Sequence record: SRR31156797_335
Reading direction: 5' to 3' (one strand)
Length of the DNA: 64,000 nt
Both the position numbers and the translations under genes were made by a program. Positions 44,664 through 64,000 of this stretch are shown in pieces. The notes under the pieces are model-generated. The model saw nothing but the letters and a program-made list of their open reading frames with translations. It made no database searches and was not told where the DNA came from. Each line of letters begins with the position of its first letter. The first letter of the stretch is position 1.

Positions 44664-44889
44664 GTATGTAATTCTTGTTTAGATCTAGTAAAAATAAACA
44701 TCTCAAAGCACATATTCAAAAATAAAGCAGGTTCTAAATAGCTAAGTGTCGCAAAAAAAGAAAGTTAAGTACGAGAAGCAAGCAAATAATTTTATATATT
44801 TATATAGAACCACTTAACCGGACGAGAATTATATTATCGGAGAATTGCCCGTTTTTCTCTCCTTAACCCTAAAATATGGAGGAATAAAT

Positions 44890-45675: not shown

Positions 45676-45687
45676 TAACTACCGAAT

Positions 45688-47905: not shown

Positions 47906-47915
47906 ATCAATAGCT

Positions 47916-48203
47916 ATGGAAAAAGATCAACATACACACATTGTAAAATATAAAACCTATATCTATGTTTTAATTGGTTTGCTAATTATGACATTCTTGT
48001 CAGTTGCTGTTACAGAGATCGATTTAGGTCCATATACAGTTTCAACAGCATTACTTTTAGCGAGTATTAAATCGGTGTTGGTTTTATTGATTTTTATGCA
48101 TTTGAAATTCGACAAGAAGTTCTATGGCATAATGGTAGCAAGTGTATTTCTGCTACTAGCCTGTGTTATTATAATTACATTCTTAGACTATTTATACCGA
48201 TAG
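47916..48203 (+). CDS. ctaF: Cytochrome c oxidase subunit IV
   Basis: Three TM helices, K..LV...FMHLKFD motif. Confidence 0.88.
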   Translation: MEKDQHTHIVKYKTYIYVLIGLLIMTFLSVAVTEIDLGPYTVSTALLLASIKSVLVLLIFMHLKFDKKFYGIMVASVFLLLACVIIITFLDYLYR

Positions 48204-48206
48204 CTT

Positions 48207-49151: not shown

Positions 49152-49186
49152 GTTAAAGCTCTCATTATCAAATCAAATTTTCTTAA

Positions 49187-50056
49187 ATGAATAAAATATC
49201 TGCTAAAATATCCGTACTACTGGAATTAGGAAAGTTTAAAATTGCTGTACCTATTGCCATTTCATGTTTTACTGGATATATACTTTACTCTCCCGATTTT
49301 TCAACAGAAATGCTTAAGGTTATATTTGGTATTTTTCTAATTGTAATGGGTGCTTCAGCATTAAATCATGTGCAAGAACACAAGAAGGATGCAATGATGG
49401 ATCGTACAAAGTTTCGTCCCATACCATCTGGAAAAATATCCATTTCAGAAGCCGTTAGATGGAGTGCATTTTTTCTTCTTTTGGGTTGTGGTTTATTAGC
49501 TTGGGGAGGAAATCCATTAAGTTTATGGGTGGCAATTATATCCATTTTTTGGTACAATTTGGTTTATACTCCTTTAAAGCAGTTTTCTGCCTTTGCTGTG
49601 GTTCCTGGTGCTTTAAGTGGTGCATTCCCTCCATGGATTGGATGGATTGCAGCTGGTGGTGACGCATTTGCTCCACCTATTCTTGCTTTGGCTTTCTTCT
49701 TCTTTATTGGGCAAATTCCACATTTTTGGCTACTCCTATTGTTATATGGAGAAGATTACAAACAAGCCGGATTTAAAGTATTAACAGATGTTTTTAGTCG
49801 CAAGCAAATTCATAAAATTACCCTGATATGGATGTTGGCAACAATTGTTGTAGCCCTTCTTCTTCCGGCTTTCAGCGTAATTTCATCTGAAGTTTTAATA
49901 TGGGTTTTACTGGCATTATCCCTTTGGATTATTCCCAATAGTTTTATTCTCTTAAAAGGTAGTGAGCGCCTAAATATTAGAAAATTATTCCTTCGACTGA
50001 ACTTTTACTTTTTGTTGATCATGATCATGATAAGTGTCGATAAATTCTATTTTTAA
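49187..50056 (+). CDS. ctaB: Protoheme IX farnesyltransferase (heme o synthase)
   Basis: ALNH..E..KDAMMDRT..RPIPSG, YTPLK, QIPHFW, DYKQAG. Confidence 0.92.
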   Translation: MNKISAKISVLLELGKFKIAVPIAISCFTGYILYSPDFSTEMLKVIFGIFLIVMGASALNHVQEHKKDAMMDRTKFRPIPSGKISISEAVRWSAFFLLLGCGLLAWGGNPLSLWVAIISIFWYNLVYTPLKQFSAFAVVPGALSGAFPPWIGWIAAGGDAFAPPILALAFFFFIGQIPHFWLLLLLYGEDYKQAGFKVLTDVFSRKQIHKITLIWMLATIVVALLLPAFSVISSEVLIWVLLALSLWIIPNSFILLKGSERLNIRKLFLRLNFYFLLIMIMISVDKFYF

Positions 50057-50464: not shown

Positions 50465-50468
50465 TATA

Positions 50469-50496
50469 GACACTTCCTTAATCGGAAGTGTTTTTT
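50469..50496. terminator. Terminator between the convergent cox and nos clusters
   Basis: GACACTTCC-ttaatc-GGAAGTGTT followed by T-tract. Confidence 0.75.
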
Positions 50497-50498
50497 AT

Positions 50499-51281
50499 TT
50501 AAAAATCTTTCCTGTTGGAATATCGAACCAGTAGATAAACTGGAATTACCACCCAAGTGATTAGTGCAATGGAAGATGCAAGAATTCCTTTCCACGCTCC
50601 AAAAAACTTGTAAAATACTGCCCCGGTATATCCCATTAAAGCAGACGTATCCAAAAATAACATTATTAAAACCCGCCCAAGATCAATTGGGTTAAATAAA
50701 GTAAATCCTATTGCCAATTTTTCGGTTGGATATGCTTCAAACCAAACCAAAATTAACAGAAATATTCCATCATAAATAATGGACATAAATAACCAGATAA
50801 ACAAAGCTAATCCAAAGCCTTTAATTCTATTTTCAAAACGTAAGGCAACAAAATAACTCAGTAAAGAAAAGATTAGACCTAAAGTAAACCCAACAATTAG
50901 TAACACCATAAAATTAGCTAGATGGTCGCTTCCTAGTATTCCCCAAAAAACAAATGGCAAGCCTACTCCCAAAATAAAACTGAACGAAAGGGATAAACTT
51001 AAACCCAAATATTGTCCTAAAAAAAAGGATTTCCGCTTAATAGGTTGTGCCAATAACAACTCTGCAAATTCTCTTGAATTGTATTGATAGATAGCTCCAA
51101 AAACAGTAGCAACAAGCGGAATAAGAATGAGTATCACATTCATCATACTAATGATTGATTTAGTAATATCTCCATTCATATATAGGATTGATCCGGTAAT
51201 CAGAAGGAAAAATAGAAAGTAGACCAAGCTCCAGGTGCTTCTAATTAAATCGAAGAAACAATATTTAAATATCTTATACAT
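50499..51281 (-). CDS. nosY: Nos ABC transporter permease
   Basis: YNSREFAELLLAQP, NPIDLGR...ALMGYTGA; last gene of the nos cluster. Confidence 0.9.
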   Translation of the reverse strand: MYKIFKYCFFDLIRSTWSLVYFLFFLLITGSILYMNGDITKSIISMMNVILILIPLVATVFGAIYQYNSREFAELLLAQPIKRKSFFLGQYLGLSLSLSFSFILGVGLPFVFWGILGSDHLANFMVLLIVGFTLGLIFSLLSYFVALRFENRIKGFGLALFIWLFMSIIYDGIFLLILVWFEAYPTEKLAIGFTLFNPIDLGRVLIMLFLDTSALMGYTGAVFYKFFGAWKGILASSIALITWVVIPVYLLVRYSNRKDF

Positions 51282-51981
51282 CTTGTTTTTCTATTAGGTT
51301 CGTAATAGCCATTTCCAAACTTCCTGCTCCATTTCTTTTATTCAAATCATGAACAGTACCTTTAAAGAAAATATCTCCCTCCAGCAGAAATACAATTTCA
51401 TCAGATATCTCCTCAACCAAACTCATTATATGCGTTGTGTAAATTATCAATTTTCCTTTTGCTTTTTCATTGTTCAAAAGTTCTTTCAATTTAGAAATTG
51501 CAACAGGATCAAGCCCAACTGTAGGTTCATCGAGTATAATAACAGGAGAATCAAACATGAACGCTAGCACCATATTAACTTTTTGCCTGGTACCTCCGGA
51601 TAAATTCCGTAAGGGTTTATGAAGTTCTTTCTCTAAGCCAAACCATTTGATTAATTCCTCATCATTTGCATCCTGTTTTCTAATATCATGTGTTAAGTCA
51701 ATCAATTCCTTAATTTTTAAATTTTCAGGAAACTTGGCAATTTGAGGCAAATAGCTAATGTGCTTACGATATTCCCAATCTCCTAAAATTGATTTTTCCA
51801 TATATTGAATTTCACCTTTTTGTGGAATTACCAAACCAAGAATACATTTAATAAGAGTTGTTTTTCCCGAACCATTAGGTCCTAAAATTGCAATTATCTT
51901 ATTTTTATCAAGCGAAAGCGATATTCCCTTTAACACCTGATTTTTTCTATAGCTTTTTTCCAGGTCTGTAATTTCAATCAT
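51274..51981 (-). CDS. nosF: Nos ABC transporter ATPase
   Basis: GPNGSGKTT, LSGGTRQK, LDEPT; between nosD and nosY. Confidence 0.9.
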   Translation of the reverse strand: MIEITDLEKSYRKNQVLKGISLSLDKNKIIAILGPNGSGKTTLIKCILGLVIPQKGEIQYMEKSILGDWEYRKHISYLPQIAKFPENLKIKELIDLTHDIRKQDANDEELIKWFGLEKELHKPLRNLSGGTRQKVNMVLAFMFDSPVIILDEPTVGLDPVAISKLKELLNNEKAKGKLIIYTTHIMSLVEEISDEIVFLLEGDIFFKGTVHDLNKRNGAGSLEMAITNLIEKQDV

Positions 51982-53215
51982 ATCTGATTTCTTTTTTTAG
52001 AGGCTTGTGATCCATTAAATAATCTGGAGTCAATACTGGATTTACCTTCTCTGCAAAATTAATTACATCAATTAGCATGCTTCTCATGAGGATACTCGAT
52101 GAAGGAATTTTCCCAATTATCCTTGAAAAAAGTTTTACTGGTCGATAAGGAACATCTCCTACTCCATCTTTATCCAAATCATATCCTGTATATAAACTCC
52201 AATAATTTCCATTAAAATTGTTGCTTTTCGAATTTCCAACCACAGCAACTTCAAAAGTATTATTGAAAAAATTATTTTGATAAAACTGATTATCAGTACT
52301 ACTACCATATATTTTTAAAGCCCAACCATTCTGTTTAAATTCATTTTGATGTACTTGCACTCGATTTGAGCCTTCCATATAAATGCCAATAGTATTCGAT
52401 TCAAAGGAATTTCTCTGGATTTCACTATCAGTGATATCCTTAAGCAGTAAACCATATGAAGCACTACCCCAATTAAATTCAAAAACATTTTTATACATAC
52501 GAATGTGTTTTGAAAACATTACTGCGACACCTGCACCATTCGATCGAAATGTATTGCCAATGTATTTATCATGATCGGAAAACATGAAATGAAGACCATA
52601 TCGTATATTGTCTACCACAAGATTATTAATCACCGTACTTTTATCTACAAACTCAAGATAAATCCCGTCACGGTGATTTCTGGTTTCATTGTTCTCAACC
52701 AAGATATTTCGGCAATACCACAGGTGAATGGCATTACCTGAAGACATTTCATCCTGAGCAATACCTTTAATGAAGTTATTTCGAATGATGCAATCTTGTG
52801 AGTTTTTTAAAAAGATCCCGAAAAAGGTTGTTTCCAATCTGTTATCTTCAAAAACACAGTAACGCTGTTTGTTCACTTTTATGGCAGCATGATCTTTAAT
52901 GTAGCTTACTTTTACATTTTGCAGCTGTACTCCCTTTATGGTGACACTATCCGATTCTATGGTGAAAATCTCTTTCTTCTCTATGTTCTCAATTATAGGA
53001 TAGTGAATTCCAATAATGGTAAGAGGATGTTCTATCAATAGATTTGGTTCAATGTACTCACCAGTTTGAATAATGATAGTATCTCCTTTCTGACTCTTTT
53101 TAATAGCCTCCGATAAACTTGAAATGGCACCTCCTACTTCAACTTTAAACTGATCAGCCCAAGAAAAAAAAGACAATTGTAAAAGAACTACAATACATAG
53201 ATATATTTTTCTCAA
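51974..53215 (-). CDS. nosD: Nitrous oxide reductase maturation protein NosD (TTG start)
   Basis: Beta-helix repeats, GNAIHLW, RDGIY, RYGLHFMFS, GNYWS.Y.GYDLDKDGVGDVPYRP. Confidence 0.93.
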   Translation of the reverse strand: MRKIYLCIVVLLQLSFFSWADQFKVEVGGAISSLSEAIKKSQKGDTIIIQTGEYIEPNLLIEHPLTIIGIHYPIIENIEKKEIFTIESDSVTIKGVQLQNVKVSYIKDHAAIKVNKQRYCVFEDNRLETTFFGIFLKNSQDCIIRNNFIKGIAQDEMSSGNAIHLWYCRNILVENNETRNHRDGIYLEFVDKSTVINNLVVDNIRYGLHFMFSDHDKYIGNTFRSNGAGVAVMFSKHIRMYKNVFEFNWGSASYGLLLKDITDSEIQRNSFESNTIGIYMEGSNRVQVHQNEFKQNGWALKIYGSSTDNQFYQNNFFNNTFEVAVVGNSKSNNFNGNYWSLYTGYDLDKDGVGDVPYRPVKLFSRIIGKIPSSSILMRSMLIDVINFAEKVNPVLTPDYLMDHKPLKKEIRYD

Positions 53216-53221
53216 ATCAAT

Positions 53222-53665
53222 CTATTTTAGTTCATTAAACTTACGATTAAGAGTTTCCCAGTTGTAGATATCACCACCATAACTCTCTTGAGCTTTCTCT
53301 GCTCCAGCTTTGGTACTAAAAGCCGTAAGATACATTCCCATTGGGCTAGGTAAATTTTTTGCATGAAGATAAAAAGCATTTCTTGCCTCCGCTAGTTTTC
53401 CAGGTGTATCATATGAAGTAATCATTATAAATGCCGCATCACTTTCTACAACATTCCCTTTGTGAATAAAATCAATCAAACACTCAACTGAATCAAATTT
53501 GTATACTTTTGATTTTTTTGTAACTAACTCGGTGCCATATTGTTTTTCCATTATCATCATTTTGCAATAATGGCATTCATCCTGACCATACTGAATTGGT
53601 TGCTCTTTTGGTTTACATGCGACAAAAAACACCAACATGAAAATAAAACAGATGTACTTGTTCAT
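53222..53665 (-). CDS. nosL: NosL copper chaperone lipoprotein
   Basis: Lipobox FVAC, DECHYCKM, KFDSVEC, SPMG. Confidence 0.92.
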   Translation of the reverse strand: MNKYICFIFMLVFFVACKPKEQPIQYGQDECHYCKMMIMEKQYGTELVTKKSKVYKFDSVECLIDFIHKGNVVESDAAFIMITSYDTPGKLAEARNAFYLHAKNLPSPMGMYLTAFSTKAGAEKAQESYGGDIYNWETLNRKFNELK

Positions 53666-53667
53666 AA

Positions 53668-54240
53668 TTATTTCTTTTTTAGGGTAACAACATAAGATAA
53701 GGCGTTAAAAACTACTGCCAGGAATAGGAACAATGATCCGATATGCGGCCATGAAATGGCGTTAAAATTCAGTAACATTTTCGATCCTATCAAAGGTGGC
53801 TGATAAACCATACCTGGAATTTTAATTGGGGCGCTTGGACTCAAATTATGACCATAATCATATTCCCATAAATAAAAATCATAAATGCCTAAGGCTCCTA
53901 AAATGATTAGTAAAACACCCCAGTAAATAAAGTATTTCGTTTTCTTCGTTATCGCTAATCCCAAACCAAGAACAACCATAAATATAACTACAAAAGGAAA
54001 GTATTTTAACTCCGGAATCGAGTCAGGTTCAATATATTTCATCCCAATGTAATGATTCAAAATATTAATGTTCTGAAGAGTACTAGGTGTATCTCCTGTG
54101 ATTTTATTCACCCAAATGTACATGTTAACACCATCGGGATACTGGGGCGCTTCCAATCTAATTTTCCAAAGTGGAAATAAGAACAATCCTAGAAGCATTA
54201 CTGATGCAAGACACATCAGAATTATTGATTTTTTATTCAT
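53668..54240 (-). CDS. nosB: Clade II nos membrane protein (NosB-like)
   Basis: PLWKIRLEAPQYP, NINILNHYIGM, WEYDYGHNL, YQPPLIG; immediately after nosZ. Confidence 0.8.
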   Translation of the reverse strand: MNKKSIILMCLASVMLLGLFLFPLWKIRLEAPQYPDGVNMYIWVNKITGDTPSTLQNINILNHYIGMKYIEPDSIPELKYFPFVVIFMVVLGLGLAITKKTKYFIYWGVLLIILGALGIYDFYLWEYDYGHNLSPSAPIKIPGMVYQPPLIGSKMLLNFNAISWPHIGSLFLFLAVVFNALSYVVTLKKK

Positions 54241-54281
54241 TCTTTCAATTTTCGGTTAGTGTAATCGTATGAGAAGAGATG

Positions 54282-54318
54282 AAAAATCCAGCAGAACCTT
54301 TTATTCGGTTCTACTGGA
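54282..54318 (-). terminator. Internal terminator/stabilising hairpin after nosZ
   Basis: Minus strand UCCAGUAGAACC-gaauaaaa-GGUUCUGCUGGA-UUUUU. Confidence 0.7.
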
Positions 54319-54331
54319 TGATCTATTTTAA

Positions 54332-56302
54332 TTATTCGTCAAAATCTCCAACACTCCACTTTAATTCAACATTTGAATTCTTTGGAGAAACTCTAATATA
54401 ACCTTGCATTTCCTGGTGAAGAGCAGAACAGAAATCGGTGCAATAGAATGGATAAATTCCTTCTCGCTGAGGATTCCAAACCAAAGTTTCCGTTTGACCA
54501 GGCATTACCAAAATTTCAGATGTACGAGCTCCCATTACACTTAATCCATGAGGTACATCCCAATCCTGTTCCAGATTCGTCAAGTGGAAATAAACCTTAT
54601 CTCCAACTTTAATACCTTCAATATTATCTGGTGCAAAATGACTTCTTATCGATGTCATATAAATGTGTACATCAGTTCCCTCTCTAACCACTTTAGCCTC
54701 ATCTTCCGACTTAATATGATGTGGATGCTTATTCTCATCCAGTTTATAAAATTTAAGAGAGTTTTTCATTATAATATCAGCAGGTATGGCTTGTGCATAA
54801 TGAGGTTCTCCAATTGTTGGAAAATCCAGCAACAATTTCATTTTCTCTCCTGAGATATCAAAAAGTTGAGCTGAATGTGCCAATTCTGGTCCTGTAGGTA
54901 AATAACGATCTTTTGTAATCTTATTCATAGCAACCATATACTTCCCAAATGGCTGTTTGGAATCTCCTCCAGGTATCATAAGGTGCCCTACTGAATAGTA
55001 ACAAGGAGCGCGATCCACAACTTCCCAGGTTCCCAACTTCCATTTCACAACTTCCGATGAAATAAAGAAAGTTGTATAAGCATTCCCTTTACCATCAAAT
55101 TCTGTATGCAAAGGACCTAAGCCACTACTTTTAACCGAACCTGCAAGAACTGCTTCATAGTTGATAACCGGAATTCCTTCAACTTCATCATCAAAATTAT
55201 CTTCTTTTATTGCTTTTAACATCTTCGTAAAAGAGTGTACCGTAACATCTGATGATAATTTTCCATTCCCACAAATGTATTCTCCTGTTGGATCAACATC
55301 AACACCATGAGGTGATTTCGGAGTCGGTAAATAGTAAATTAAACCTGGACATTCTTCAGGAATAAGAACTTTCACTTCTTTTTTCATCTCTGAAGTTGCC
55401 ATGTGTGTATGCTCATCGTAAACATTGTGAGCATAATTGGCTGGTAATGTTTTAAATCTACCAGCGGCAAGATATTCTTCCGCCTTTTTCCAATTTACTG
55501 CGGCGATATAGTCCTTATCTTTTTGAGATGCTCCAATTTCCAATAAGGTATTACTTTCCTCAGTATTGTAACTTGTAAAGAAAGTCCATCCATGGGATTT
55601 TCCTTTTCCTGAGTGCGCTAAATCATAATCATATCCAGGAACTAAAATCTGAAAAGCAACGTCCATTTCTCCTTTTTCTCCAACACTTATATAAGTTAAG
55701 GCACCTTTAAAATTCTCTTTATAGGTATTAATAGCTACATCTTTTTGAGGAATAGGCACACTAAATCGAGTTCCTGCAACTACATACTCCGAATTTTCAG
55801 TGATAAATGGAGAACTATGGTTTCCTCCACTATTAGGAATTTCAATAATTTCAGCCGTTTCAAATGTTGTTAAATCAATACGAGCAATTCTTGGAGTATT
55901 GTTTCCATTAATAAATATCCATCGTCCATCAGGGACTCCATTGGTTTGCGAAAGTTCAGGATGATGAGAATCGTCCCAAGGAATAAAACCAAATGAAGTA
56001 TTCAGCATTGGCTTAGTTTCCTCATTAAAACCATATGCTTTTTCAGCATCAACAGAGAAAACAGGGATTACTTTAAACAATCGACCTGAAGGCAAGCCAT
56101 ACACAGAAAGCTGACCACTAAATCCTCCAGAAAAAAAGGCATAAAACTCATCAAACTCACCGGGAGCAACATAAACTTGAGAGGCTGCATCACTATCTCC
56201 AAAAGCACCTTTTGATTGTTTGGATGATTCACTATTACATGCGGATAAACTTATTCCTATTACCAGAATAAAAGCAAACCACTTTAAATAATTCTTTTTC
56301 AT
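54332..56302 (-). CDS. nosZ: Nitrous-oxide reductase, clade II (Sec/lipoprotein signal)
   Basis: Lipobox LSAC with no twin-Arg; CuZ His motifs DSHH, GNH, PHG, GPLH, GHL, EPH; CuA DVPHG...CTDFCSALHQEM. Confidence 0.97.
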   Translation of the reverse strand: MKKNYLKWFAFILVIGISLSACNSESSKQSKGAFGDSDAASQVYVAPGEFDEFYAFFSGGFSGQLSVYGLPSGRLFKVIPVFSVDAEKAYGFNEETKPMLNTSFGFIPWDDSHHPELSQTNGVPDGRWIFINGNNTPRIARIDLTTFETAEIIEIPNSGGNHSSPFITENSEYVVAGTRFSVPIPQKDVAINTYKENFKGALTYISVGEKGEMDVAFQILVPGYDYDLAHSGKGKSHGWTFFTSYNTEESNTLLEIGASQKDKDYIAAVNWKKAEEYLAAGRFKTLPANYAHNVYDEHTHMATSEMKKEVKVLIPEECPGLIYYLPTPKSPHGVDVDPTGEYICGNGKLSSDVTVHSFTKMLKAIKEDNFDDEVEGIPVINYEAVLAGSVKSSGLGPLHTEFDGKGNAYTTFFISSEVVKWKLGTWEVVDRAPCYYSVGHLMIPGGDSKQPFGKYMVAMNKITKDRYLPTGPELAHSAQLFDISGEKMKLLLDFPTIGEPHYAQAIPADIIMKNSLKFYKLDENKHPHHIKSEDEAKVVREGTDVHIYMTSIRSHFAPDNIEGIKVGDKVYFHLTNLEQDWDVPHGLSVMGARTSEILVMPGQTETLVWNPQREGIYPFYCTDFCSALHQEMQGYIRVSPKNSNVELKWSVGDFDE

Positions 56303-56574
56303 ATTCCTAAGGTTTAATGTTAAGTAATATCATATATTGAAAATTTTCACTAACAAATTCACTTAGGAAATTAACCTATAAACAGAGATTATAACTCCCC
56401 TATAAGTTATTCTATTTTGATGAATTTCTTCATCAAGTTAATTCCCATAATAGATGGGCTACCTTATTATATATCAACAAAACCCATTCTATCAAAAAGT
56501 TACGTAATATTAAAAATAGAATCAATTTAATTAAGAGAGTTCTATGTCTTTTTTTAAGAATACTCGAATAAGTA

Positions 56575-57552
56575 TTATTTTATGGTTCTGAAATATTCCA
56601 AAACCTTTCTTGTCTCATCCTGAGTAAGATTTTGGTTTGCCATAGGCGAGATATACCTTTGTAATAACTCTTTTGCAATAGGATCCTTTTCTACCATTCC
56701 TTCCGGATTTAGTATCATATTCATGATCCATTCAGGAGTTCTTCTATCCATAATACCTTTTGGTGCAGGACCAATATAACGCTTCGTTGGTTTATGGCAA
56801 CTTGTACAAAGACGTTTATATAATTTCTCTCCCTCTTCTGCCATTTTCATATTTACAGGACCTAAAGTAACCGATGACACCGGACCAACACCTTTTGCTC
56901 CTGAGTAAAGTTTAGCCAAACGAGCTTCAAATTCTGCATTGCTCTCTTTAGGACCTGTATCCGCCAATTCAAAATTATCTTCTCCTAATTTTTGTCCTTG
57001 TAATTTAACTTTTACATACTCAATAATTTTCCATCTGTCTTCCGGTTTAATTTGCGGACCATGAGCTCCCATTACACCAAAACCAACAGTAATTACATGA
57101 TAAATTTCACCACGTGGTGTTGCTTTCATCACATCGGTAACCAAACTTCTTGGAGAGTAAGGATATTTTCCACTTGTAAATAAAAATCCTTTCCCATTTC
57201 CCTTTAAGCCATGGCAATTGTAACAGTAAATTTTATAAAGTTTTTTACCTTCGGCTACATCTCTCATTTTCATCTCATCAGGATTAAATACAGTTATTCC
57301 AGCAAGTTGTCTGTTCTCAATTGTTTTCTCAAAATCGAATGGTATCATTCCTCTAGGCACAGTACCTTCTGGCGGTAATCGTAAGGATTTACCATCGTCG
57401 AAATTAGGATTGCTCGAATAAGGTTCATATGCTCGTGAATCCATCATATCAGGGTAATAAGAATAGCCTGGATGGTTGCGATCCTCATCACATGAAGTGA
57501 ACAAAGCTAAATGTAGAATTAATCCGAAAGTATATATTAAGTATCTTCTCAT
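56575..57552 (-). CDS. actE: ActE-like lipoprotein cytochrome c fused to a second (nos-type) cytochrome c domain; diheme
   Basis: Lipobox FTSC, YYPDMMDS, PPEGTVPRG, CYNCH (aa110-114), YHVIT.G.GVM, EDRWKI; then linker and KGVGPV...CTSCH (aa249-253)...RRTPEWIMNMILNP...PMANQNLT. Confidence 0.85.
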   Translation of the reverse strand: MRRYLIYTFGLILHLALFTSCDEDRNHPGYSYYPDMMDSRAYEPYSSNPNFDDGKSLRLPPEGTVPRGMIPFDFEKTIENRQLAGITVFNPDEMKMRDVAEGKKLYKIYCYNCHGLKGNGKGFLFTSGKYPYSPRSLVTDVMKATPRGEIYHVITVGFGVMGAHGPQIKPEDRWKIIEYVKVKLQGQKLGEDNFELADTGPKESNAEFEARLAKLYSGAKGVGPVSSVTLGPVNMKMAEEGEKLYKRLCTSCHKPTKRYIGPAPKGIMDRRTPEWIMNMILNPEGMVEKDPIAKELLQRYISPMANQNLTQDETRKVLEYFRTIK

Positions 57553-57565
57553 AGCTAATTATTTA

Positions 57566-58729
57566 TCAGGTTTCGTAATGGAAACTTTCTTCTAACAAAG
57601 GATCATTTTTACTCAATAAAGGAGCTTTTGCCAATGAAGCAAAAACGACATATAGAAATCCGCCTAAAAACAAGCAAACAAATCCGATTTCAACCATTCC
57701 AATTTGGGCTGCTTTTCCAATGGTACCCGGAATAACCAATAGATATATATTCAACCACTGACCAACCAGAACAATAACAGCCATAAAACTCAGCCATTTC
57801 AAATTTCTTTTCGAATTTCTTGTCATCAATCCCAAAAATGGAATTAAAAAATTCATAACCAGAATGGTGAAAAATAAAATGGTATGATCATTCAATCGAG
57901 GAGCAAAATATGCTGTTTCCTCTGGAATATGGCTATACCAAATCAACAGATACTGCGAGAACCACAAATACATCCAGAAAATACTAAAGGCAAATAAATA
58001 TTTACCCATATCATGAATATGCTCTTTGTTTATAAATTCTAATTTACCTTGTGATTTTAAAAAGCTAATCATTAAAATAATACAGGCAATTCCGCTAACA
58101 AACAAGCCAATAAAAACGAACCATCCGTAAAGTGTGCTAAACCAATGTGCATCGATAGACATTAACCAATCCCAACTCATGGTTGAACTGCTTACAGCAA
58201 AGAAAACCATGAATAAAGCTGCCAATAACTTCCCCTTCTTGTAATATTTAACATCTGTAGATAAATCCTGATGTAATGAATTTTTCCTTAATAAATAGCC
58301 TAAACCTATCCAGCCTGCAAAGTAAATTGCCATTCGGATAAAAAAGAATGGGATATTTAGATAAGCTGCTTTTCCTTCCAAAATAGGATCGTGTAAATTT
58401 TCGTGCGACCAATGGTAAATATCATGCATTCCGAAATACAACAGAAACATTAAAACTGCTGATATTGGAAGAAAGGCAGACATTGCCTCAGGAATTCTTT
58501 GTAATGATGTATGCCAACCCGAATAAGCGATTTTGTGCAATGCCTGAAATACCACTCCAAATAAAGCTATGAAAAGAAAATATAGATTATTTATTAAAAA
58601 ATTTGTCCATAACCTCTGTCCGTTGGGCGACTCGATAAAATATCCAAATAGCAATAAAACGATTCCAAGTCCGCCTAAAGCCATTAAGAAGTTTCGAGTT
58701 TTACGGGAAAATGTATAATTGTTATCCAT
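57566..58729 (-). CDS. actF: Alternative complex III membrane subunit ActF
   Basis: RIPEAM, YHWSH, YLNIPFFFIR, WDWLMSIDAHWFSTLYGW, HDMGK, FSQYLLIWY.HIPEE. Confidence 0.9.
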   Translation of the reverse strand: MDNNYTFSRKTRNFLMALGGLGIVLLLFGYFIESPNGQRLWTNFLINNLYFLFIALFGVVFQALHKIAYSGWHTSLQRIPEAMSAFLPISAVLMFLLYFGMHDIYHWSHENLHDPILEGKAAYLNIPFFFIRMAIYFAGWIGLGYLLRKNSLHQDLSTDVKYYKKGKLLAALFMVFFAVSSSTMSWDWLMSIDAHWFSTLYGWFVFIGLFVSGIACIILMISFLKSQGKLEFINKEHIHDMGKYLFAFSIFWMYLWFSQYLLIWYSHIPEETAYFAPRLNDHTILFFTILVMNFLIPFLGLMTRNSKRNLKWLSFMAVIVLVGQWLNIYLLVIPGTIGKAAQIGMVEIGFVCLFLGGFLYVVFASLAKAPLLSKNDPLLEESFHYET

Positions 58730-58749
58730 AATCAAATGGTTTATCCAGT

Positions 58750-59271
58750 TTATGATTCAATCTCCTTTACCTGTATATTTTGCGCTTCCTCATTTAAAAG
58801 AATACTTTTTACATTCTCATCCTGATTTCCTTGCTCATCCAAATCAACAATGATTACAAAATGATCATCTGTAATTCTTTCATCATGAATTACATTGTTG
58901 GCTCCAGGTCCTAATTTCGAAACAATAAAAAAGGCTGTTGCCATTCCAAATGCAGCAAACAATACGGTTACTTCAAATGATATTGGTATAAATGATGGAA
59001 TTGCAAAATGCGGCTTACCTCCAATAAACAAAGGATAATCAACCACAAATGCCCAAGTTTGAAACCCGAAAGCGACTGCCAAACCAATAGCTCCGCAGAT
59101 AAATGCAACAGTTGGTAAATTGGAACGCTTGTATCCCAACACATGATCTAAACCATGCACCGGAAATGGTGTAAGAACATCCTGTATAGAGATATTTTTC
59201 TCTCTTAAATCCTTAGCTGCGCGAAGAAGATTTTCCTCATCTTCAAAATAGGCTAAAATGTATCTTCTCAT
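58750..59271 (-). CDS. actD: Alternative complex III subunit ActD (DUF3341)
   Basis: TPFPVHGLD, DYPLFIGGKP, FIPISFEVTVL, RITDDHF. Confidence 0.9.
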   Translation of the reverse strand: MRRYILAYFEDEENLLRAAKDLREKNISIQDVLTPFPVHGLDHVLGYKRSNLPTVAFICGAIGLAVAFGFQTWAFVVDYPLFIGGKPHFAIPSFIPISFEVTVLFAAFGMATAFFIVSKLGPGANNVIHDERITDDHFVIIVDLDEQGNQDENVKSILLNEEAQNIQVKEIES

Positions 59272-59273
59272 GA

Positions 59274-60647
59274 TTATTCGTTTTTATCAGTTACAGCTTT
59301 CTTTTCTCCTGAACTTTTCAAAACACTCTTCACCTCAGCAATCGCAATTACCGGGAAGACTCTAATAAATAGTAGGAAACAGGTAAAAAACAATCCTAAA
59401 GTTCCAATGAAAATTCCAACTTCAACAATTGTTGGCTCATACATTGACCAACTTGAAGGAAGATAATCACGATGCAAAGAGGTTACAATGATTACAAATC
59501 GTTCGAACCACATTCCAATATTTATGAAAATGGAAAGAATGAACGTAAACACGAGGTTTCGACGTAGTTTTTTAAACCACAACAATTGTGGAGAAATAAC
59601 ATTACAAGTCATCATTATGGCATAAGCCCACCAATATGGTCCGGTTGCACGATTCAAAAATGCATATTGCTCATATTCCACTCCCGAATACCAGGCAATA
59701 AACAACTCAGTGATATAAGCAATACCAACAATTGAACCTGTTGCAATAATAATTTTATTCATCGATTCGATGTGCCCAACCGTTATGTAGTTCTCTAAAT
59801 TCAACACTTTTCGTGTGATAATTAACAAGGTAAGCACCATGGCAAATCCCGAAAATATTGCCCCTGAAACAAAATATGGTGGAAATATGGTGGTATGCCA
59901 ACCTGGAATTACTGATGTTGCAAAATCGGAACTTACAATACTATGAACCGACAGTACAAGAGGTGCTGCCAATCCAGCTAATATTAAACTAATGGTTTCA
60001 TGTCTGCTCCAATGTTTTGCAGATCCGGTCCAACCAAAACTTAAGAAACCGTAGATTGCTTTCTTAAATTTAGATTTCATTCTATCTCGTATAGTTCCGA
60101 TATCAGGAATTAAGCCTACATACCAAAATAGAAGTGATACACTAAAATAAGTACTAATTGCGAACACATCCCACAATAGTGGCGAGTTAAAGTTCACCCA
60201 TAAATCACGCGTATTTGGATATGGAAATACAAAGAAACCCAAAAGTGGTCGTCCCATGTGGATTAATGGAAACAATCCAGCACACATAACCGCAAAAAGT
60301 GTCATTGCCTCGGCTGAACGGTTGATACTTGTTCTCCATTTTTGTCGAAACAAGAGCAATATTGCAGAAATAAATGTACCGGCATGACCAATACCTACCC
60401 ACCAAACAAAGTTGGTAATTCCCCAACCCCATCCAATAGTTTTGTTCAATCCCCAGGTTCCTATTCCTTCCCAAATGGTGTAAGCCATCATAAGCAGTCC
60501 AAATAGCAAGGCGGAAGAAGTTAAAGCTATCCCTGCATACCAAGCCTTTCCTGCTTTTCCTTCAATAGGAGCAGATATTTCATCTGTTATTTTTTTGTAA
60601 GTCTTTTCCCCTGTTATAAGAGGCTCTCTAATTGGCGACACATACAT
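59274..60647 (-). CDS. actC: Alternative complex III quinol-oxidising NrfD/PsrC-type subunit ActC
   Basis: NFVWWVGIGHAGTFISA, RSAEAMT, HMGRP, SPLLWDVFA, VHSIVS.DFA, WFERFVI. Confidence 0.94.
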   Translation of the reverse strand: MYVSPIREPLITGEKTYKKITDEISAPIEGKAGKAWYAGIALTSSALLFGLLMMAYTIWEGIGTWGLNKTIGWGWGITNFVWWVGIGHAGTFISAILLLFRQKWRTSINRSAEAMTLFAVMCAGLFPLIHMGRPLLGFFVFPYPNTRDLWVNFNSPLLWDVFAISTYFSVSLLFWYVGLIPDIGTIRDRMKSKFKKAIYGFLSFGWTGSAKHWSRHETISLILAGLAAPLVLSVHSIVSSDFATSVIPGWHTTIFPPYFVSGAIFSGFAMVLTLLIITRKVLNLENYITVGHIESMNKIIIATGSIVGIAYITELFIAWYSGVEYEQYAFLNRATGPYWWAYAIMMTCNVISPQLLWFKKLRRNLVFTFILSIFINIGMWFERFVIIVTSLHRDYLPSSWSMYEPTIVEVGIFIGTLGLFFTCFLLFIRVFPVIAIAEVKSVLKSSGEKKAVTDKNE

Positions 60648-60657
60648 AGGCGCGGTT

Positions 60658-63621
60658 TTATGATTCGTTCGACTTTTTGTTTCTAATTTTCGTTAAATAA
60701 CTAACCGATGGAAGAGTGTGAATTTCCTCCAGAAGATGGTAATTTCTCTTACTAGAAGTTTCCTTTACCAACTTACTTTCCTTATTATTCAAATCTCCAA
60801 AAATGATGGCTCCGGAAGGACAAGCTTGTTCACAAGCCGTTTTAATTTCCCCATCTTTGACTTTTCGACCATCAATTTTCGCATTTAATTTTCCTTCCTG
60901 AATTCTCTGAACACACAAAGAGCACTTCTCTATAACTCCCTTTGCTCTTACGGTTACATCTGGATTGAGAACCATACGTTTCAAATCAATGGTCATCTCT
61001 GCCACATCATGCAAATTATTTGGAATCGAATCGGCTTTTGTATAATCAAACCAATTGAATCGACGTACTTTATACGGACAATTATTTCCACAATACCTGG
61101 TCCCAATACACCTATTGTAAGCCATTTGATTCAATCCCTCCGAACTATGGTTGGTAGCAGCAACAGGACAAACATTTTCGCATGGTGCATTATCGCAATG
61201 CTGACACATTACCGGTTGATAGGATACATCTGGATTAAAGTCATCGCCTGAGAAATACCTATCGATACGAATCCATGACATTTCGTGAGCACGAATTACC
61301 TCTTTTTTTCCAACAACAGGAACATTATTTTCTACCTGACAAGCCACTGAACAAGCTCCACAACCAACGCAAGAATTCAAATCAACCACCAGTCCCCAAT
61401 GATGATTCGGGAATGTTGGTTTTTCGTAAATGGATGCATTTTCGAATTTGTGGTGTGCTTCGTTTCCTGCAGCAGGATTATCTTTATACTCGTCTAAATT
61501 AGCCTCTCGCACAATAGCTCTCCCCTCCATAGAGTGATGAGTTTGTGTCATTGCCAATTCATAAATTTCTTCTGTTTTCTTTAACTCAACTCCTTTTTTA
61601 TCAAGCTCTTTTAAGGAACTCACATTAACACCAACATTTTTCCCAACAACACCAGATACTTTTCTTCCATATCCCGATGCTACAGCTACAGTATTGTATG
61701 CTTGTCCTGGTAAAATGTAAATAGGCAATTTATGTCCTGAGTTTAACTCCACCACATCGCCTGTTGAAAGGCTTAGCTCCTCCGCTTGTTTCGGTGAAAT
61801 TGTAAGATAATTATCCCAACAAACTTTGCTGATAGGATCAGGCATTTCCTGCAACCAAGGATTGTTTGCCATTCGACCATCTCCTACTGCAATAGATTCA
61901 TAAACCTGTAGTTCTATTTTATTACTCTGTGAGGATTTGGTCATTTTATTCATTAAAACATCAAATCCTTTGGCATTCAATTTTGTATTAAATGATGATT
62001 TAAAGGATGGCTCAAATACTCCTTGCTGCAAGGTATTGTTCCAAAATGTAATGAAGTTTGGATAGGCAGCTTGCATTGGATACATGTTCTTTTCCCAATA
62101 TCTTTTTAAGTATTGCAAGTAATCAGGGCTTTCACCCATCCAAGTCAGCAATGATGCTTGAAATTGTCTGGTATCAAACAGTGGGCGAATTCCTGGTTGC
62201 ATCAAACTAAAGCGAGATGTTTTTGGTTCAAAATCACTCCAACTCTCTAAAAAATGATTGTCTGGAGCAGACATTTTCATTAATACCGATGTTTCATTTG
62301 GAGCCTCATCCATTGATAATGTAAAGCCAACTTTCCGTAAGGCTTCCCCAAATTCTTTTCCTTTAGAATAATCAAAAACCGGATTAACATCTGCTGTAAT
62401 CAATCCTTTTACCTTGCCAGATTTTAGATCTGATAAAAGATTTTCCATATCAGAATCAACAGCCTGCAGGGTGTTTAGTTTTTTATCAACTCTTAATGTG
62501 CTTCCGTAATTTTCAAGCTCAAAATTGATTGCATTTACCAATATCTGAATGCTAAGATCATTCTCACCCGCTACAACCAAGGACTTCCCTTTTTTCGCCC
62601 ATAATTCCTTAGCTATTGCTTTCAAGTCTGCAGAGGCTTCAGTAATTGGATAAGTTGTGCTTCCTTTTAATTTTAGAATTTCATTGTACAGTTGAGCAAT
62701 TAATCCAGCTTGTTCCGAAGGCTTAACAGGAATTCTTTGATCTGCATTACTTCCTGTTAGAGACATTCTTGATTCAAACTGGATGTGTCTTGACATAGAC
62801 GTATTTCCATCACTCAATTTTCTCTTTTTGGCATATTGACGTATGTGCTCCACCGGCATGAGCCAATTACCAAGAAAATCTGCATCAAAACTTACAATCA
62901 TATCGGCATAATCAAATCGGTAATCCGATATTCCAGCCTCTCCAAAACAGGATTTATTTGCTTGAATCAGAGCTGAAGCAGATTGACTATCGTATTGTAC
63001 CCATTTTATATTCGGATACTTCGCAATAAAATTTGTAATTAGTTCAATTGTTGTAGGACTGTAAATTGTTGGAGTAAGCAAAACAACCTGATCTTTTGCA
63101 TCTCGTAAATCCTCCAATTCCTTAACAACTAGCTCATCCAACTCTTCCCAGGTAGATTTCTTATCACCAATTTTAGGATTCTTATTTCGACTTATATCGT
63201 ACAAACCTAAAACTGAAGCTTGTACTCGTGAACTTGTTCCTCCATAAGTAACTCCAGATAAATCGTTGCCTTCAATTTTAATAGGTCGACCTTCTCTTGT
63301 TTTAATAAGGATACTGCAATACTCACTTCCTTTCGCAAAAGTGGACGCATAATAATTTGCCTTACCAGGAGTAACCTCTTCCGGTTTTACCAGATATGGG
63401 ATGGCTTTTTGAACAGAGTTCTCGCAACTAGCCAGAACTGTGCTTATTGCCAAACTGTAGCCACATAACTTTAAAAAATCTCTTCTATTACTTTTCGAAT
63501 CAGCCTGATCTCCATCGAAGATATCCAGAATTTGCTCCAAATTTCCTTTTGGTATTTTATTATCAGGGCTTGTATCTTGTCCGTTTTTACGTTCGGTAAG
63601 GCTTTTCCAGTATTTCTTCAT
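60658..63621 (-). CDS. actB: Alternative complex III subunit ActB (molybdopterin-oxidoreductase-like + Fe-S domains)
   Basis: MKKYWKSL, Tat motif RRDFLK, REGRPIKIEGN, NNPWLQEMPDP; Fe-S motifs CVGCGAC, CQHCDNAPC, CIGTRYC..NCP, CSLC...CEQAC. Confidence 0.94.
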   Translation of the reverse strand: MKKYWKSLTERKNGQDTSPDNKIPKGNLEQILDIFDGDQADSKSNRRDFLKLCGYSLAISTVLASCENSVQKAIPYLVKPEEVTPGKANYYASTFAKGSEYCSILIKTREGRPIKIEGNDLSGVTYGGTSSRVQASVLGLYDISRNKNPKIGDKKSTWEELDELVVKELEDLRDAKDQVVLLTPTIYSPTTIELITNFIAKYPNIKWVQYDSQSASALIQANKSCFGEAGISDYRFDYADMIVSFDADFLGNWLMPVEHIRQYAKKRKLSDGNTSMSRHIQFESRMSLTGSNADQRIPVKPSEQAGLIAQLYNEILKLKGSTTYPITEASADLKAIAKELWAKKGKSLVVAGENDLSIQILVNAINFELENYGSTLRVDKKLNTLQAVDSDMENLLSDLKSGKVKGLITADVNPVFDYSKGKEFGEALRKVGFTLSMDEAPNETSVLMKMSAPDNHFLESWSDFEPKTSRFSLMQPGIRPLFDTRQFQASLLTWMGESPDYLQYLKRYWEKNMYPMQAAYPNFITFWNNTLQQGVFEPSFKSSFNTKLNAKGFDVLMNKMTKSSQSNKIELQVYESIAVGDGRMANNPWLQEMPDPISKVCWDNYLTISPKQAEELSLSTGDVVELNSGHKLPIYILPGQAYNTVAVASGYGRKVSGVVGKNVGVNVSSLKELDKKGVELKKTEEIYELAMTQTHHSMEGRAIVREANLDEYKDNPAAGNEAHHKFENASIYEKPTFPNHHWGLVVDLNSCVGCGACSVACQVENNVPVVGKKEVIRAHEMSWIRIDRYFSGDDFNPDVSYQPVMCQHCDNAPCENVCPVAATNHSSEGLNQMAYNRCIGTRYCGNNCPYKVRRFNWFDYTKADSIPNNLHDVAEMTIDLKRMVLNPDVTVRAKGVIEKCSLCVQRIQEGKLNAKIDGRKVKDGEIKTACEQACPSGAIIFGDLNNKESKLVKETSSKRNYHLLEEIHTLPSVSYLTKIRNKKSNES

Positions 63622-63676: not shown

Positions 63677-64000
63677 TTAGTAGTGGCAGCGTGCACATTC
63701 ACGTCCTCCAATATCGGTAACTCTAACACTATCAATTGCTCCTGTTGCCAATTCTTCATGCAATTTCTTGAATCCTGCAGAATAGTATCCATTCTCTCTA
63801 AAATCAACTGCAGTTTTATCATGACAATCCAAACACCATCCCATTGATAAATCTTCAACTTGTTTTACTACATGCATCTCTTCAACAAGTCCGTGACATT
63901 CCTGGCAATCTCGTTTCCCAACATTCACATGTTGTGCATGATTAAAATAGACATGATCAGGAAGCTGATGAATACGAATCCATTCCACCGGTGTATTATT
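63677..64000 (-). CDS. actA: Alternative complex III multiheme cytochrome ActA, 3' part (runs off window end)
   Basis: Frame open to window edge; EWIRIHQLPDHVYFNHAQHV, CQECH, MGWCLDCH, CARCHY. Confidence 0.92.
   Translation of the reverse strand, partial: NNTPVEWIRIHQLPDHVYFNHAQHVNVGKRDCQECHGLVEEMHVVKQVEDLSMGWCLDCHDKTAVDFRENGYYSAGFKKLHEELATGAIDSVRVTDIGGRECARCHY

What the first reader, a model, noticed from the sequence alone, without database searches (positions are those of the whole stretch)
56575..57552. ActE fused to a NosZ-associated cytochrome c: candidate hard-wired ACIII-to-N2O-reductase conduit
Seen: one 325-aa lipoprotein ORF with two CxxCH motifs. Residues 1-185 are ActE-like (YYPDM, PPEGTVPRG, CYNCH, EDRWKI). 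After a ~35-aa linker, residues 220-325 (about 56578-56895) form a second class I cytochrome c (KGVGPV, CTSCH, IGPAPKGIMDRRTPEWIMNMILNP, PMANQNLT). Known: characterised ActE proteins (Rhodothermus, Flavobacterium) are monoheme exit-side subunits toward the oxidase. From recall, the second domain matches the stand-alone cytochrome c usually encoded just upstream of clade II nosZ in Bacteroidota. Inference: a Rosetta-stone fusion identifying ACIII as the quinol-oxidising donor for NosZ and suggesting a membrane-tethered ACIII-NosZ supercomplex, since NosZ is also a lipoprotein. I know of no description of this fusion.
Basis: partly seen in the sequence, partly recalled or inferred. Interest (0 to 1): 0.9.

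Follow-up and report, generated by a model that had tools for sequence, protein, structure and literature searches.

The report
ACIII subunit fused to NosZ cytochrome
One gene joins the exit subunit of a quinol-oxidising respiratory complex to the small cytochrome that normally sits in front of the nitrous-oxide reductase gene, which points to how these bacteria feed electrons to the enzyme that destroys the greenhouse gas N2O.

Summary
ORF 56575-57552(-) is a 325-aa lipoprotein with two CxxCH motifs. Residues 25-186 match structurally solved ActE (6btm_E, E 7.7e-32). Residues 219-324 match Rhodothermus marinus cytochrome c (3cp5_A, E 1.9e-25). It is the last gene of actABCDFE and lies 272 nt upstream of clade II nosZ-nosB-nosLDFY.

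The C-domain's stand-alone relatives are lipoprotein cytochromes. In 72 of 80 fetched Bacteroidota loci they are followed directly by nosZ.

The fusion is not an artefact. About 60 protein clusters from independent assemblies carry it. They share an indel-free linker and form one clade, so it arose once.

In the window's family, 5 of 97 genomes have the fusion and the same 5 have NosZ. The 23 genomes with monoheme ActE have none. A second fused lineage places the whole act operon behind nosDFY.

A near-congener lacks nos and carries a divergent monoheme actE at the same site, so actE*+nos behaves as one exchangeable block.

Best reading: ACIII passes electrons through this tethered second heme to NosZ. 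A stable supercomplex is untested. I found no description in print. It is a new variant of a known kind, of moderate to high interest.

The parts
56575..57552 (-). actE* : 325-aa diheme lipoprotein, a fusion of ActE and the nos-cluster cytochrome c (stop codon 56575-56577)
57490..57552 (-). signal peptide with lipobox FTSC, Cys21 followed by D-E-D-R-N (the C-D-x-x-R-N motif is shared by fused and monoheme ActE)
56992..57489 (-). ActE domain, residues 22-187; heme motif CYNCH at 57211-57225; invariant Met161 is the candidate sixth ligand
   Evidence: 6btm_E 25-186; invariant columns
56941..56991 (-). flexible part of the linker, residues 188-204
   Evidence: pLDDT under 50 at 194-201; variable columns, no indels
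56578..56940 (-). conserved helix 205-215 plus Rma-type cytochrome c domain 219-325; heme motif CTSCH at 56794-56808; invariant Met304
56303..56574 (-). 272-nt AT-rich spacer between actE* and nosZ, with a sigma-70-like match (56466-56495, 11 of 12) and a 20-nt palindrome (56417-56436); no terminator-like site
57566..58735 (-). actF (ActC paralogue; no Pfam hit)
   Evidence: (BLASTP against ActC, 20% over 319 aa, E 3e-6)
58750..59271 (-). actD
   Evidence: PF11821, E 5e-57
59274..60647 (-). actC (NrfD-type quinol-binding membrane subunit)
60658..63621 (-). actB (molybdopterin-like plus 4Fe-4S subunit)
63677..64000 (-). actA, multiheme cytochrome c, cut by the window end
54332..56302 (-). nosZ, Sec-type (clade II) nitrous-oxide reductase, with lipobox LSAC at residues 19-22
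   Evidence: (TIGR04246, 937 bits)
53668..54240 (-). nosB (190 aa; carries LNHYIGM and YGHN)
   Evidence: motifs as quoted in PMC9697520
50499..53665 (-). nosL, nosD, nosF and nosY (nosY named by conserved position only)
50465..57446 (-). block that differs from the near-congener L119. 50465-56996 has no counterpart there, and 56997-57446 (body of actE) is only 70-79% identical in DNA against about 90-95% in the flanks
44845..50056 (+). convergent caa3 oxidase cluster (SCO1, COX1, COX3, COX2 with fused cytochrome c, heme O synthase); the second likely electron sink of the same ACIII

Best explanation
actE* encodes the electron-exit subunit of the cell's only alternative complex III. Its C-terminus is extended by the cytochrome c that Bacteroidota otherwise make as a separate lipoprotein at the head of the clade II nos cluster. 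The proposed path is: menaquinol is oxidised at ActC; electrons run through ActB iron-sulfur clusters and ActA hemes to the ActE heme (CYNCH, Met161). This part follows from homology to solved ACIII structures, and the path itself is recalled from those papers. From the ActE heme the electron passes to the second heme (CTSCH, Met304). That heme sits on a compact domain held by about 17-20 flexible residues. The domain then swings to the CuA side of the membrane-tethered NosZ. The fusion replaces the lipid anchor and long low-complexity tether of the stand-alone cytochrome with ActE itself. The carrier is therefore always one per complex and cannot diffuse away. The same ActE heme can still serve the neighbouring caa3 oxidase, so ActE* is a branch point between O2 and N2O. 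The gene and the nos cluster are inherited, lost or exchanged together. Shown here: domain identities, operon position, recurrence, a single origin, co-occurrence with NosZ, and block replacement relative to a near-congener. Inferred: the direction of electron flow, docking on NosZ, and the branch to the oxidase.
For: Domain identities: (6btm_E E 7.7e-32; 3cp5_A E 1.9e-25).

Operon: actA-B-C-D-F-E* then nosZ-B-L-D-F-Y on one strand.

Stand-alone C-domain relatives: 2128 hits at E<=1e-3. Most are 140-190 aa with a signal peptide, Cys, a 30-45-aa low-complexity stretch and then the domain. nosZ is the next gene in 72 of 80 loci across Bacteroidota.

Recurrence: 61 full-length diheme proteins among the 120 best hits.

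Single origin: the linker has no indels and has invariant G190, E203, F208, E209, R211 across 43 fused proteins of both groups. The 30 fused C-domains form one side of a branch against 132 stand-alone ones, SH-aLRT 95.

Co-occurrence: in 97 species genomes of the family, 5 have the fusion and the same 5 have NosZ. The 23 with monoheme ActE have neither NosZ nor a C-domain homolog.

Only one ActD, hence one ACIII, in each of the 5. G001 and G002 have no second ActE and no stand-alone nos cytochrome.

No cytochrome b in 4 of the 5.

Independent gene order: in group II the act operon follows nosD-F-Y in 6 of 6 loci that reach that far. None of the 9 loci with about 1.9 kb or more downstream shows nosZ or cox there.

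The C-domain is not needed for the oxidase: monoheme relatives have the same act-cox layout.

Block behaviour: against L119, ActC is 99%, ActF 97% and COX1 99% identical, but the ActE domain only 72%. DNA identity drops from 91% to 70-79% at about 57447, and 6.5 kb (C-domain to nosY) is missing in L119. In the ActE tree the window groups with fused forms (98) and L119 with a monoheme clade (98).
Against: There is no biochemical or expression evidence. The RNA-library contigs identical to the window (X2) are short, do not cross the junction, and may be DNA carry-over.

The C-domain family is not exclusive to nos. Two FixP/CcoP-like proteins (P0143, P0150) carry it at 51% identity. Three of 80 stand-alone loci have no nosZ within reach. 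The solved member, R. marinus cytochrome c, has been discussed as an aerobic-chain carrier (recalled).

The 272-nt spacer with a promoter-like match suggests nosZ is transcribed separately from actE* in the window.

nosZ itself was not seen in the group II loci, because it lies beyond the 10-kb flank. I could not establish whether those organisms keep a second ACIII or a stand-alone cytochrome.

The ActE-domain tree needs 2-3 changes of state, so at least one reversion to the monoheme form, or a replacement, must be assumed.

The AlphaFold2 model is mediocre overall (mean pLDDT 67.5, no hemes).
Confidence: 0.72

Rival explanations
1. General-purpose tethered shuttle. The second heme domain is simply ACIII's usual mobile acceptor, fixed in place. 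It serves every periplasm-facing terminal enzyme (caa3 and cbb3 oxidases, nitrite and NO reductases, NosZ) with no special relation to NosZ. The link with nos would then reflect only where the donor gene came from.
For: The same domain family occurs as the C-terminal heme domain of FixP/CcoP-like proteins (P0143, P0150, 51% identity). Three stand-alone loci lack nosZ nearby. A caa3 cluster lies next to the nos cluster in the window and in L001, L002, L121 and L122.
Against: Monoheme relatives with the same act-cox neighbourhood do without the domain. In the family the domain is present only where NosZ is present, 5 of 5 against 0 of 23 ACIII-bearing genomes without NosZ. Group II loci have nos genes but no oxidase genes beside the operon. 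The caa3 subunit II already carries its own cytochrome c domain.
Confidence: 0.17
2. Neutral read-through fusion. Because actE is the last gene of the ABCDFE-type operon and the nos cytochrome gene is the first of the nos cluster, a small deletion joined them. The product works no differently from the two separate proteins and confers no advantage.
For: The gene order makes such an accident easy. actE is last in the ABCDFE subtype, seen in 8 of 29 sampled operons of the order. The cytochrome gene is first in the nos cluster in 72 of 80 loci.
Against: The fusion has persisted down to about 50% identity with an indel-free linker holding invariant residues and a confidently predicted helix absent from stand-alone forms. 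It also survived a rearrangement that moved it away from nosZ in group II. No fused-form genome examined (G001, G002) keeps a separate copy.
Confidence: 0.1
3. Assembly or annotation artefact: a frameshift or chimeric join creating a false long ORF.
For: The only run that covers the junction is the probable source of this DNA, so it is not independent.
Against: The same architecture, with conserved reading frame and linker, is present in about 60 protein clusters from different projects, in 5 species genomes and in 21 metagenome contigs.
Confidence: 0.01

Closest known systems
ActE, monoheme lipoprotein subunit of alternative complex III (F. johnsoniae 6BTM chain E; R. marinus 6F0K chain E)
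   Same: Residues 25-186 align end to end with 6btm_E. It has an N-terminal lipobox and one CxxCH, and it is encoded in an act operon with ActA, B, C, D and F.
   Different: It carries 140 extra C-terminal residues with a second heme domain. It is encoded last (ABCDFE) rather than between actD and actF as in 21 of 29 sampled operons of the order.
Rhodothermus marinus cytochrome c (3CP5) and the stand-alone lipoprotein cytochrome c at the head of Bacteroidota clade II nos clusters (for example Mros1103 of Melioribacter, PMC3534657 passages)
   Same: Residues 219-324 match 3cp5_A at E 1.9e-25. They share 45-70% identity with the nos-linked stand-alone proteins. The gene sits in the same position directly upstream of nosZ.
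   Different: It has no signal peptide, lipid anchor or low-complexity tether of its own. Instead it has a conserved helix (205-215) and a short linker to ActE.
Respiratory enzymes with a built-in cytochrome c carrier: caa3 oxidase subunit II, diheme QcrC of actinobacterial bcc-aa3 supercomplexes, CcoP of cbb3 oxidases, and cytochrome-c-fused NosZ (cNosZ) of Wolinella (all recalled)
   Same: The logic is the same: a normally separate one-electron carrier is fused to a partner, so that transfer no longer depends on diffusion.
   Different: Here the carrier is fused to the donor complex (ACIII), not to the reductase as in cNosZ or caa3. The acceptor is a copper N2O reductase, not an oxidase.
NosGH/NosC1C2 and Rieske/cytochrome bc route to clade II NosZ in Wolinella succinogenes (Hein et al. 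2017, seen only as a citation in PMC9697520)
   Same: It does the same job, connecting the menaquinol pool to clade II NosZ.
   Different: The proteins are unrelated. No nosG/H-like genes lie in the window's nos cluster, and no cytochrome b was found in 4 of 5 fused-form genomes.

Membership tests
ActE (ACIII monoheme cytochrome c subunit) | Sequence homology over the whole length of structurally characterised ActE | tested here: met
   6btm_E E 7.7e-32 (query 25-186 on chain 4-160); 6f0k_E 1.3e-21; 6lod_E 9.7e-13; 8k9e_E 3.5e-8
ActE (ACIII monoheme cytochrome c subunit) | Encoded in an operon with actA, actB, actC, actD (and actF) | tested here: met
   all five lie upstream on the same strand. 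The order is ABCDFE.
ActE (ACIII monoheme cytochrome c subunit) | N-terminal lipoprotein signal with acylated Cys | tested here: inconclusive
   The lipobox FTSC/Cys21 is present and conserved. Acylation cannot be tested in silico.
ActE (ACIII monoheme cytochrome c subunit) | One heme c only, about 160-200 aa | tested here: not met
   Two CxxCH motifs, 325 aa. It is therefore a diheme variant, not a canonical ActE.
Rma-type / nos-cluster cytochrome c | Homology to R. marinus cytochrome c with CxxCH and the distal Met | tested here: met
   3cp5_A E 1.9e-25. C249, C252, H253 and M304 are invariant in 27 and 43 sequences. That M304 matches the axial Met of 3CP5 is read from the printed alignment plus recalled residue numbering.
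Rma-type / nos-cluster cytochrome c | Gene directly upstream of clade II nosZ | tested here: met
   Window: 272 nt upstream. Family: 72 of 80 loci.
Rma-type / nos-cluster cytochrome c | Own signal peptide, lipobox and low-complexity tether | tested here: not met
   Replaced by the ActE domain and a conserved linker
Clade II (Sec-type) nos cluster as the neighbour | NosZ of the Sec type, with nosB and nosLDFY, and without nosR/nosX | tested here: met
   TIGR04246 937 bits against TIGR04244 375 bits. NosB motifs are present. NosL, NosD and an ABC ATPase were found. No nosR/X-like ORF lies in 50.4-56.3 kb.
ACIII-terminal enzyme supercomplex (as ACIII-caa3 of F. johnsoniae) | Stable physical association of ACIII with the terminal enzyme | not testable with these tools
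   It needs BN-PAGE, co-purification or cryo-EM.

The most novel reading that the evidence does not exclude
actE* is the adaptor of an exchangeable N2O-respiration cassette. Because the nos cluster travels fused to the one ACIII subunit gene that lies at the operon's end, a single homologous exchange inside actE swaps 'actE' for 'actE*-nosZBLDFY' or back. This wires or unwires NosZ to the resident quinol oxidase in one step. In the cell the two lipoproteins form a membrane-tethered ACIII-NosZ supercomplex. In group II organisms a whole ACIII has become a dedicated part of the nos operon.
Probability: 0.25. Interest if true: 0.8.

Novelty: new variant of a known kind. Interest (0 to 1): 0.62.

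Why it matters
Clade II NosZ organisms, many of them Bacteroidota, are regarded as major sinks for N2O. How their reductase is connected to the quinone pool has been worked out only for Wolinella, which uses different proteins.

This fusion, its strict co-occurrence with NosZ, and a lineage in which the ACIII operon is part of the nos cluster together give direct genomic evidence. They indicate that ACIII, through the Rma-type cytochrome c, is the donor route in Bacteroidota. This also implies that N2O respiration there is coupled to an energy-conserving complex.

The fusion offers a handle for experiments: one gene to truncate, a diheme band to look for, and a defined pair for cryo-EM. A cultured relative that carries the fusion exists (Ancylomarina longa protein P0007).

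The block replacement relative to a near-congener shows how N2O-reducing capacity can be gained or lost between close relatives. This matters when nosZ presence is predicted from taxonomy.

Tried and rejected
1. Whole-genome look-ups for the window failed because no genome is held. I worked through relatives instead.

2. Complex prediction of mature NosZ with the C-domain returned 'no answer' (score 0.01, controls not run, alignments not used). It counts neither for nor against binding.

3. Raw-read support for the junction: only Logan contigs were served. The one run covering the junction is the probable source (X1). X2 (marine sediment RNA library) holds short identical contigs in nosZ, the 5' part of actE* and actF, but none across the junction. 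X3 and X4 hold relatives. One X4 contig stops fitting at 56995, the end of the ActE domain. None of this is used as evidence of expression or habitat.

5. A Bacteroidota-type -7 promoter motif (TAnnTTTG, recalled) is not enriched in the window (77 found against 91 expected) and is absent from the spacer on the coding strand. No terminator-like site follows actE*.

6. The spacer palindrome was sought upstream of nosZ in 72 other loci: 0 hits.

7. GC content gives no sign of foreign origin for 50.4-57.4 kb.

8. P0241, a 324-aa diheme hit, is not an ActE fusion. Its N-half aligns only from residue 89 at 33% identity.

9. The direction of the exchange between the window lineage and L119 could not be settled. 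Divergence from G410 is similar inside and outside the block.

Full report
**The object.** The minus-strand ORF 56575..57552 encodes 325 residues.
- It starts with a signal peptide ending in the lipobox FTSC (Cys21) and has two heme-binding motifs, CYNCH (110-114) and CTSCH (249-253).
- Pfam sees two separate class I cytochrome c domains, 98-180 and 238-324.
- Against all PDB chains, residues 25-186 match subunit E of the Flavobacterium johnsoniae alternative complex III (6btm_E, E 7.7e-32). They also match the ActE chains of Rhodothermus (6f0k_E), Roseiflexus (6lod_E) and 8k9e_E.
- Residues 219-324 match the 1.23-Å Rhodothermus marinus cytochrome c (3cp5_A, E 1.9e-25; engineered forms 6cuk/6cun).

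**Surroundings.** Upstream on the same strand lie:
- actA (cut by the window end);
- actB (987 aa);
- actC (NrfD type);
- actD (PF11821, E 5e-57);
- a 389-aa membrane protein without a Pfam hit, which is an ActC paralogue (20% identity over 319 residues, E 3e-6) and therefore ActF.

The order is thus actABCDFE, with actE last. Downstream, after a 272-nt spacer, come:
- a Sec-type (clade II) nosZ (TIGR04246, 937 bits);
- a 190-aa membrane protein with the NosB motifs LNHYIGM and YGHN (motifs as quoted in passages of PMC9697520);
- nosL, nosD, an ABC ATPase (nosF) and a 260-aa membrane protein in the nosY position.

Convergent with these lies a caa3 oxidase cluster whose subunit II has its own cytochrome c domain. 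NosZ begins with MKK...ISLSAC, a lipobox pattern.

**What the C-domain is.** A full HMMER pass of residues 205-325 over 1.84 billion representative proteins gave 2128 hits at E<=1e-3.
- The best are mostly 140-190-aa proteins at 45-70% identity.
- In alignment these have a signal peptide, a lipobox Cys, 30-45 low-complexity residues and then the domain. They are membrane-tethered cytochromes.
- A profile of them fetched 80 loci from species genomes across Bacteroidota.
- tblastn with the window's proteins shows nosZ as the next gene on the same strand in 72 of the 80. Four end at a contig edge within 206 nt, three have no nosZ in 4.5-10 kb, and one has the gene between nosL and nosD.
Passages of the Melioribacter genome paper list such a cytochrome c (Mros1103) next to NosZ (Mros1104).
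- One caveat: the domain family is not exclusive to nos. Two FixP/CcoP-like proteins carry it as their last domain at 51% identity.

**Is the fusion real and recurrent?** Among the 120 best hits to the whole protein, 61 are full-length (300-366 aa) with two CxxCH motifs and a lipobox.
- Twelve are at 69-90% identity (group I, including a protein named from Ancylomarina longa).
- About fifty are at 50-57% (group II, named only 'c-type cytochrome [Bacteroidales bacterium]' or 'mono/diheme cytochrome c family protein').
- They come from many independent assemblies.
- In an alignment of 43 of them the inter-domain segment has no indels and holds invariant G190, E203, F208, E209 and R211.
- In a tree of C-domains the 30 fused ones sampled form one side of a branch against 132 stand-alone ones (SH-aLRT 95, quick search, 111 columns).
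- The fusion therefore arose once and has been kept down to about 50% identity.
- AlphaFold2 on this alignment (mean pLDDT 67.5, no hemes) places a helix at 205-215 and the C-domain at pLDDT 85-93. Only about 186-204 is disordered. The extended N-terminal arm (20-88) is of low confidence, as expected for a segment that in solved ACIII lies on other subunits (the last point recalled).

**Link to NosZ beyond adjacency.**
- In the 97 species genomes of the family that holds the closest relatives, 5 have the full-length fusion and 23 have only a monoheme ActE of about 190 aa.
- NosZ over its curated cut-off is found in 5 of the 97, and these are exactly the 5 with the fusion.
- In four of them nosZ follows the fusion directly. 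In the fifth the contig ends 30 codons into nosZ.
- Each of the five has a single ActD, hence one ACIII.
- G001 and G002 have no second ActE and no stand-alone C-domain gene.
- Four of the five have no cytochrome b gene. The exception is a 6.7-Mb, many-contig genome.
- In a 401-genome sample of the order, only the centre genome has the fusion. About 60 have monoheme ActE and about two dozen have a stand-alone C-domain gene.

**Group II gives an independent arrangement.** A scan of metagenome contigs returned 22 loci, 21 of which encode a fused protein.
- All 17 with room upstream show actF directly before the fused gene.
- All 6 that reach about 10 kb upstream show nosD-nosF-nosY-actA-B-C-D-F-E* on one strand.
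- None of the 9 with about 1.9 kb or more downstream shows nosZ or an oxidase there. In L135 an aminopeptidase P gene and then unrelated genes follow.
- Here the whole ACIII operon is appended to the nos cluster.
- nosZ itself lies beyond the fetched flank and could not be reached.

**Block behaviour.** Locus L119, from a genome without NosZ, is nearly congeneric with the window.
- Protein identities are ActC 99%, ActF 97%, ActD 97%, COX1 99% and COX2 98%. Its ActE is monoheme and only 72% identical.
- In DNA, window 39065-50464 and 56997-64000 align at 92% and 89%. The 6.5 kb between them (nosY through the C-domain) is replaced by 59 bp in L119.
- Within actE, identity is 70-79% for 56997-57446 and returns to 91% from 57447 on.
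- In a tree of ActE domains (117 rows, quick search) the window groups with fused proteins (98). L119 sits in a 17-member monoheme clade (98).
- The fused/monoheme label needs three changes, two of them forced by starred branches. One 'monoheme' row, P0064, is probably a contig-end fragment.
- So the body of actE, the C-domain and the nos cluster were exchanged as one block in one of the two lineages, with one breakpoint inside the 5' end of actE.
- The direction is not settled. Divergence from G410 is similar inside and outside the block, and GC content is flat.
- The ABCDFE order, which puts actE at the operon's end, is a minority subtype: 8 of 29 sampled operons of the order, against 21 with C-D-E-F.

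**Mechanism.** The best-supported reading is that ActE* is the exit subunit of the cell's only complex III analogue.
- It carries, as a built-in second heme, the cytochrome that elsewhere shuttles on a lipid tether between ACIII and NosZ.
- The short flexible segment lets this domain alternate between the ActE heme and the CuA side of the lipoprotein NosZ.
- The ActE heme remains available to the caa3 oxidase, whose neighbourhood is identical in monoheme relatives.
- Domain identity, context, single origin, conservation and co-occurrence are shown here. Electron flow and docking are inferred.
- A stable supercomplex is possible but untested.

**Comparison and novelty.**
- The protein meets the ActE criteria of homology, operon context and lipobox, but not 'monoheme'.
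- It meets the criteria of the nos-cluster cytochrome for homology and position, but lacks its own anchor.
- The closest parallels are other hard-wired carriers: the caa3 subunit II, diheme QcrC, CcoP and the cytochrome-c-fused NosZ of Wolinella (all recalled). In this case the carrier is fused to the donor complex, not to the reductase.
- Eight full-text searches found no description of an ActE-cytochrome fusion or of an act operon inside a nos cluster. The term sets were:
  - alternative complex III + nosZ;
  - ACIII + nitrous oxide reductase;
  - ActE + NosZ;
  - clade II + nosZ + nosB + cytochrome c + Bacteroidetes;
  - nosZ/nosB/nosG/cytochrome c;
  - Rhodothermus marinus + cytochrome c + nitrous oxide reductase;
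  - alternative complex III + ActE + fusion.
- Passages read:
  - PMC11214002 states generally that denitrification conserves energy via complex III or ACIII.
  - PMC10732223 reports ACIII-like clusters beside nar, nap and nxr genes.
  - PMC3543383 describes an unrelated eight-helix ActE variant.
- Subscription-only reviews of clade II Nos electron transport and all supplements were out of reach and may bear on the novelty claim.

**Verdict.** This is a real, conserved, single-origin fusion. It is a valid Rosetta stone for the path ACIII -> Rma-type cytochrome c -> clade II NosZ in Bacteroidota. It is a new variant of a known kind. Interest 0.62.

Noticed in passing
window 56417-56436: A perfect 20-nt palindrome, TTGATGAAGAAATTCATCAA, lies in the actE*-nosZ spacer just downstream of a sigma-70-like match (56466-56495, 11 of 12). 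It could be an operator for a Crp/Fnr-type regulator (a recalled resemblance). It was not found upstream of nosZ in any of 72 other loci.
   Followed up: partly
L014 10336-10905 and about 36 other loci with a gap of about 600 nt: In roughly half of the nos loci, a lipoprotein ORF of about 189 aa sits between the cytochrome c gene and nosZ. Its sequence looks fasciclin-like to me (recalled; no family search was run). The window has no such gene.
   Followed up: no
proteins P0143 (478 aa) and P0150 (392 aa): These are FixP/CcoP-type cbb3 oxidase subunits whose last heme domain belongs to the same Rma-type family (51% identity to the window's C-domain; Pfam FixP_N plus two cytochrome c domains). 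This is a second, independent hard-wiring of the carrier, here to an oxidase.
   Followed up: partly
L089-L117 (order sample): There are two ACIII operon subtypes. C-D-E-F occurs in 21 of 29 loci, with ActF about 38% and ActD about 33% identical to the window's. D-F-E occurs in 8 of 29, with ActF about 50% and ActD 44-63% identical. All fused forms seen belong to the D-F-E subtype.
   Followed up: partly
window 56995, run X4: A 2.9-kb contig of an oyster-associated metagenome follows the window through actF and the ActE domain at about 90-95% identity, then stops fitting exactly at the end of the ActE domain. It behaves like L119: a relative with unfused ActE.
   Followed up: no
window 57490-57492 (ActE* Cys21, followed by Asp) against 56237-56239 (NosZ Cys22, followed by Asn): ActE and ActE* always have Asp after the lipid-modified Cys (C-D-x-x-R-N). 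NosZ and the stand-alone cytochromes have Asn, Gly or Ser. Under the E. coli sorting rule (recalled; its validity in Bacteroidota is unknown) this would keep ActE in the inner membrane and send the others to the outer membrane.
   Followed up: no
window 50144-50464 (+) and 44845-45675 (+): A heavy-metal-associated (HMA) domain protein and an SCO1/SenC protein flank the caa3 cluster next to the nos genes. They are likely copper chaperones shared by two copper enzymes. The left end of the exchanged block lies right after the HMA gene's stop.
   Followed up: no
L014 9257-9688 (-): A 143-aa ORF that looks like an Rrf2-type regulator lies divergent from the cytochrome c-nosZ genes. This matches the BadM/Rrf2 regulator reported beside the Melioribacter nos cluster (PMC3534657 passage). 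No counterpart lies next to nosZ in the window.
   Followed up: no
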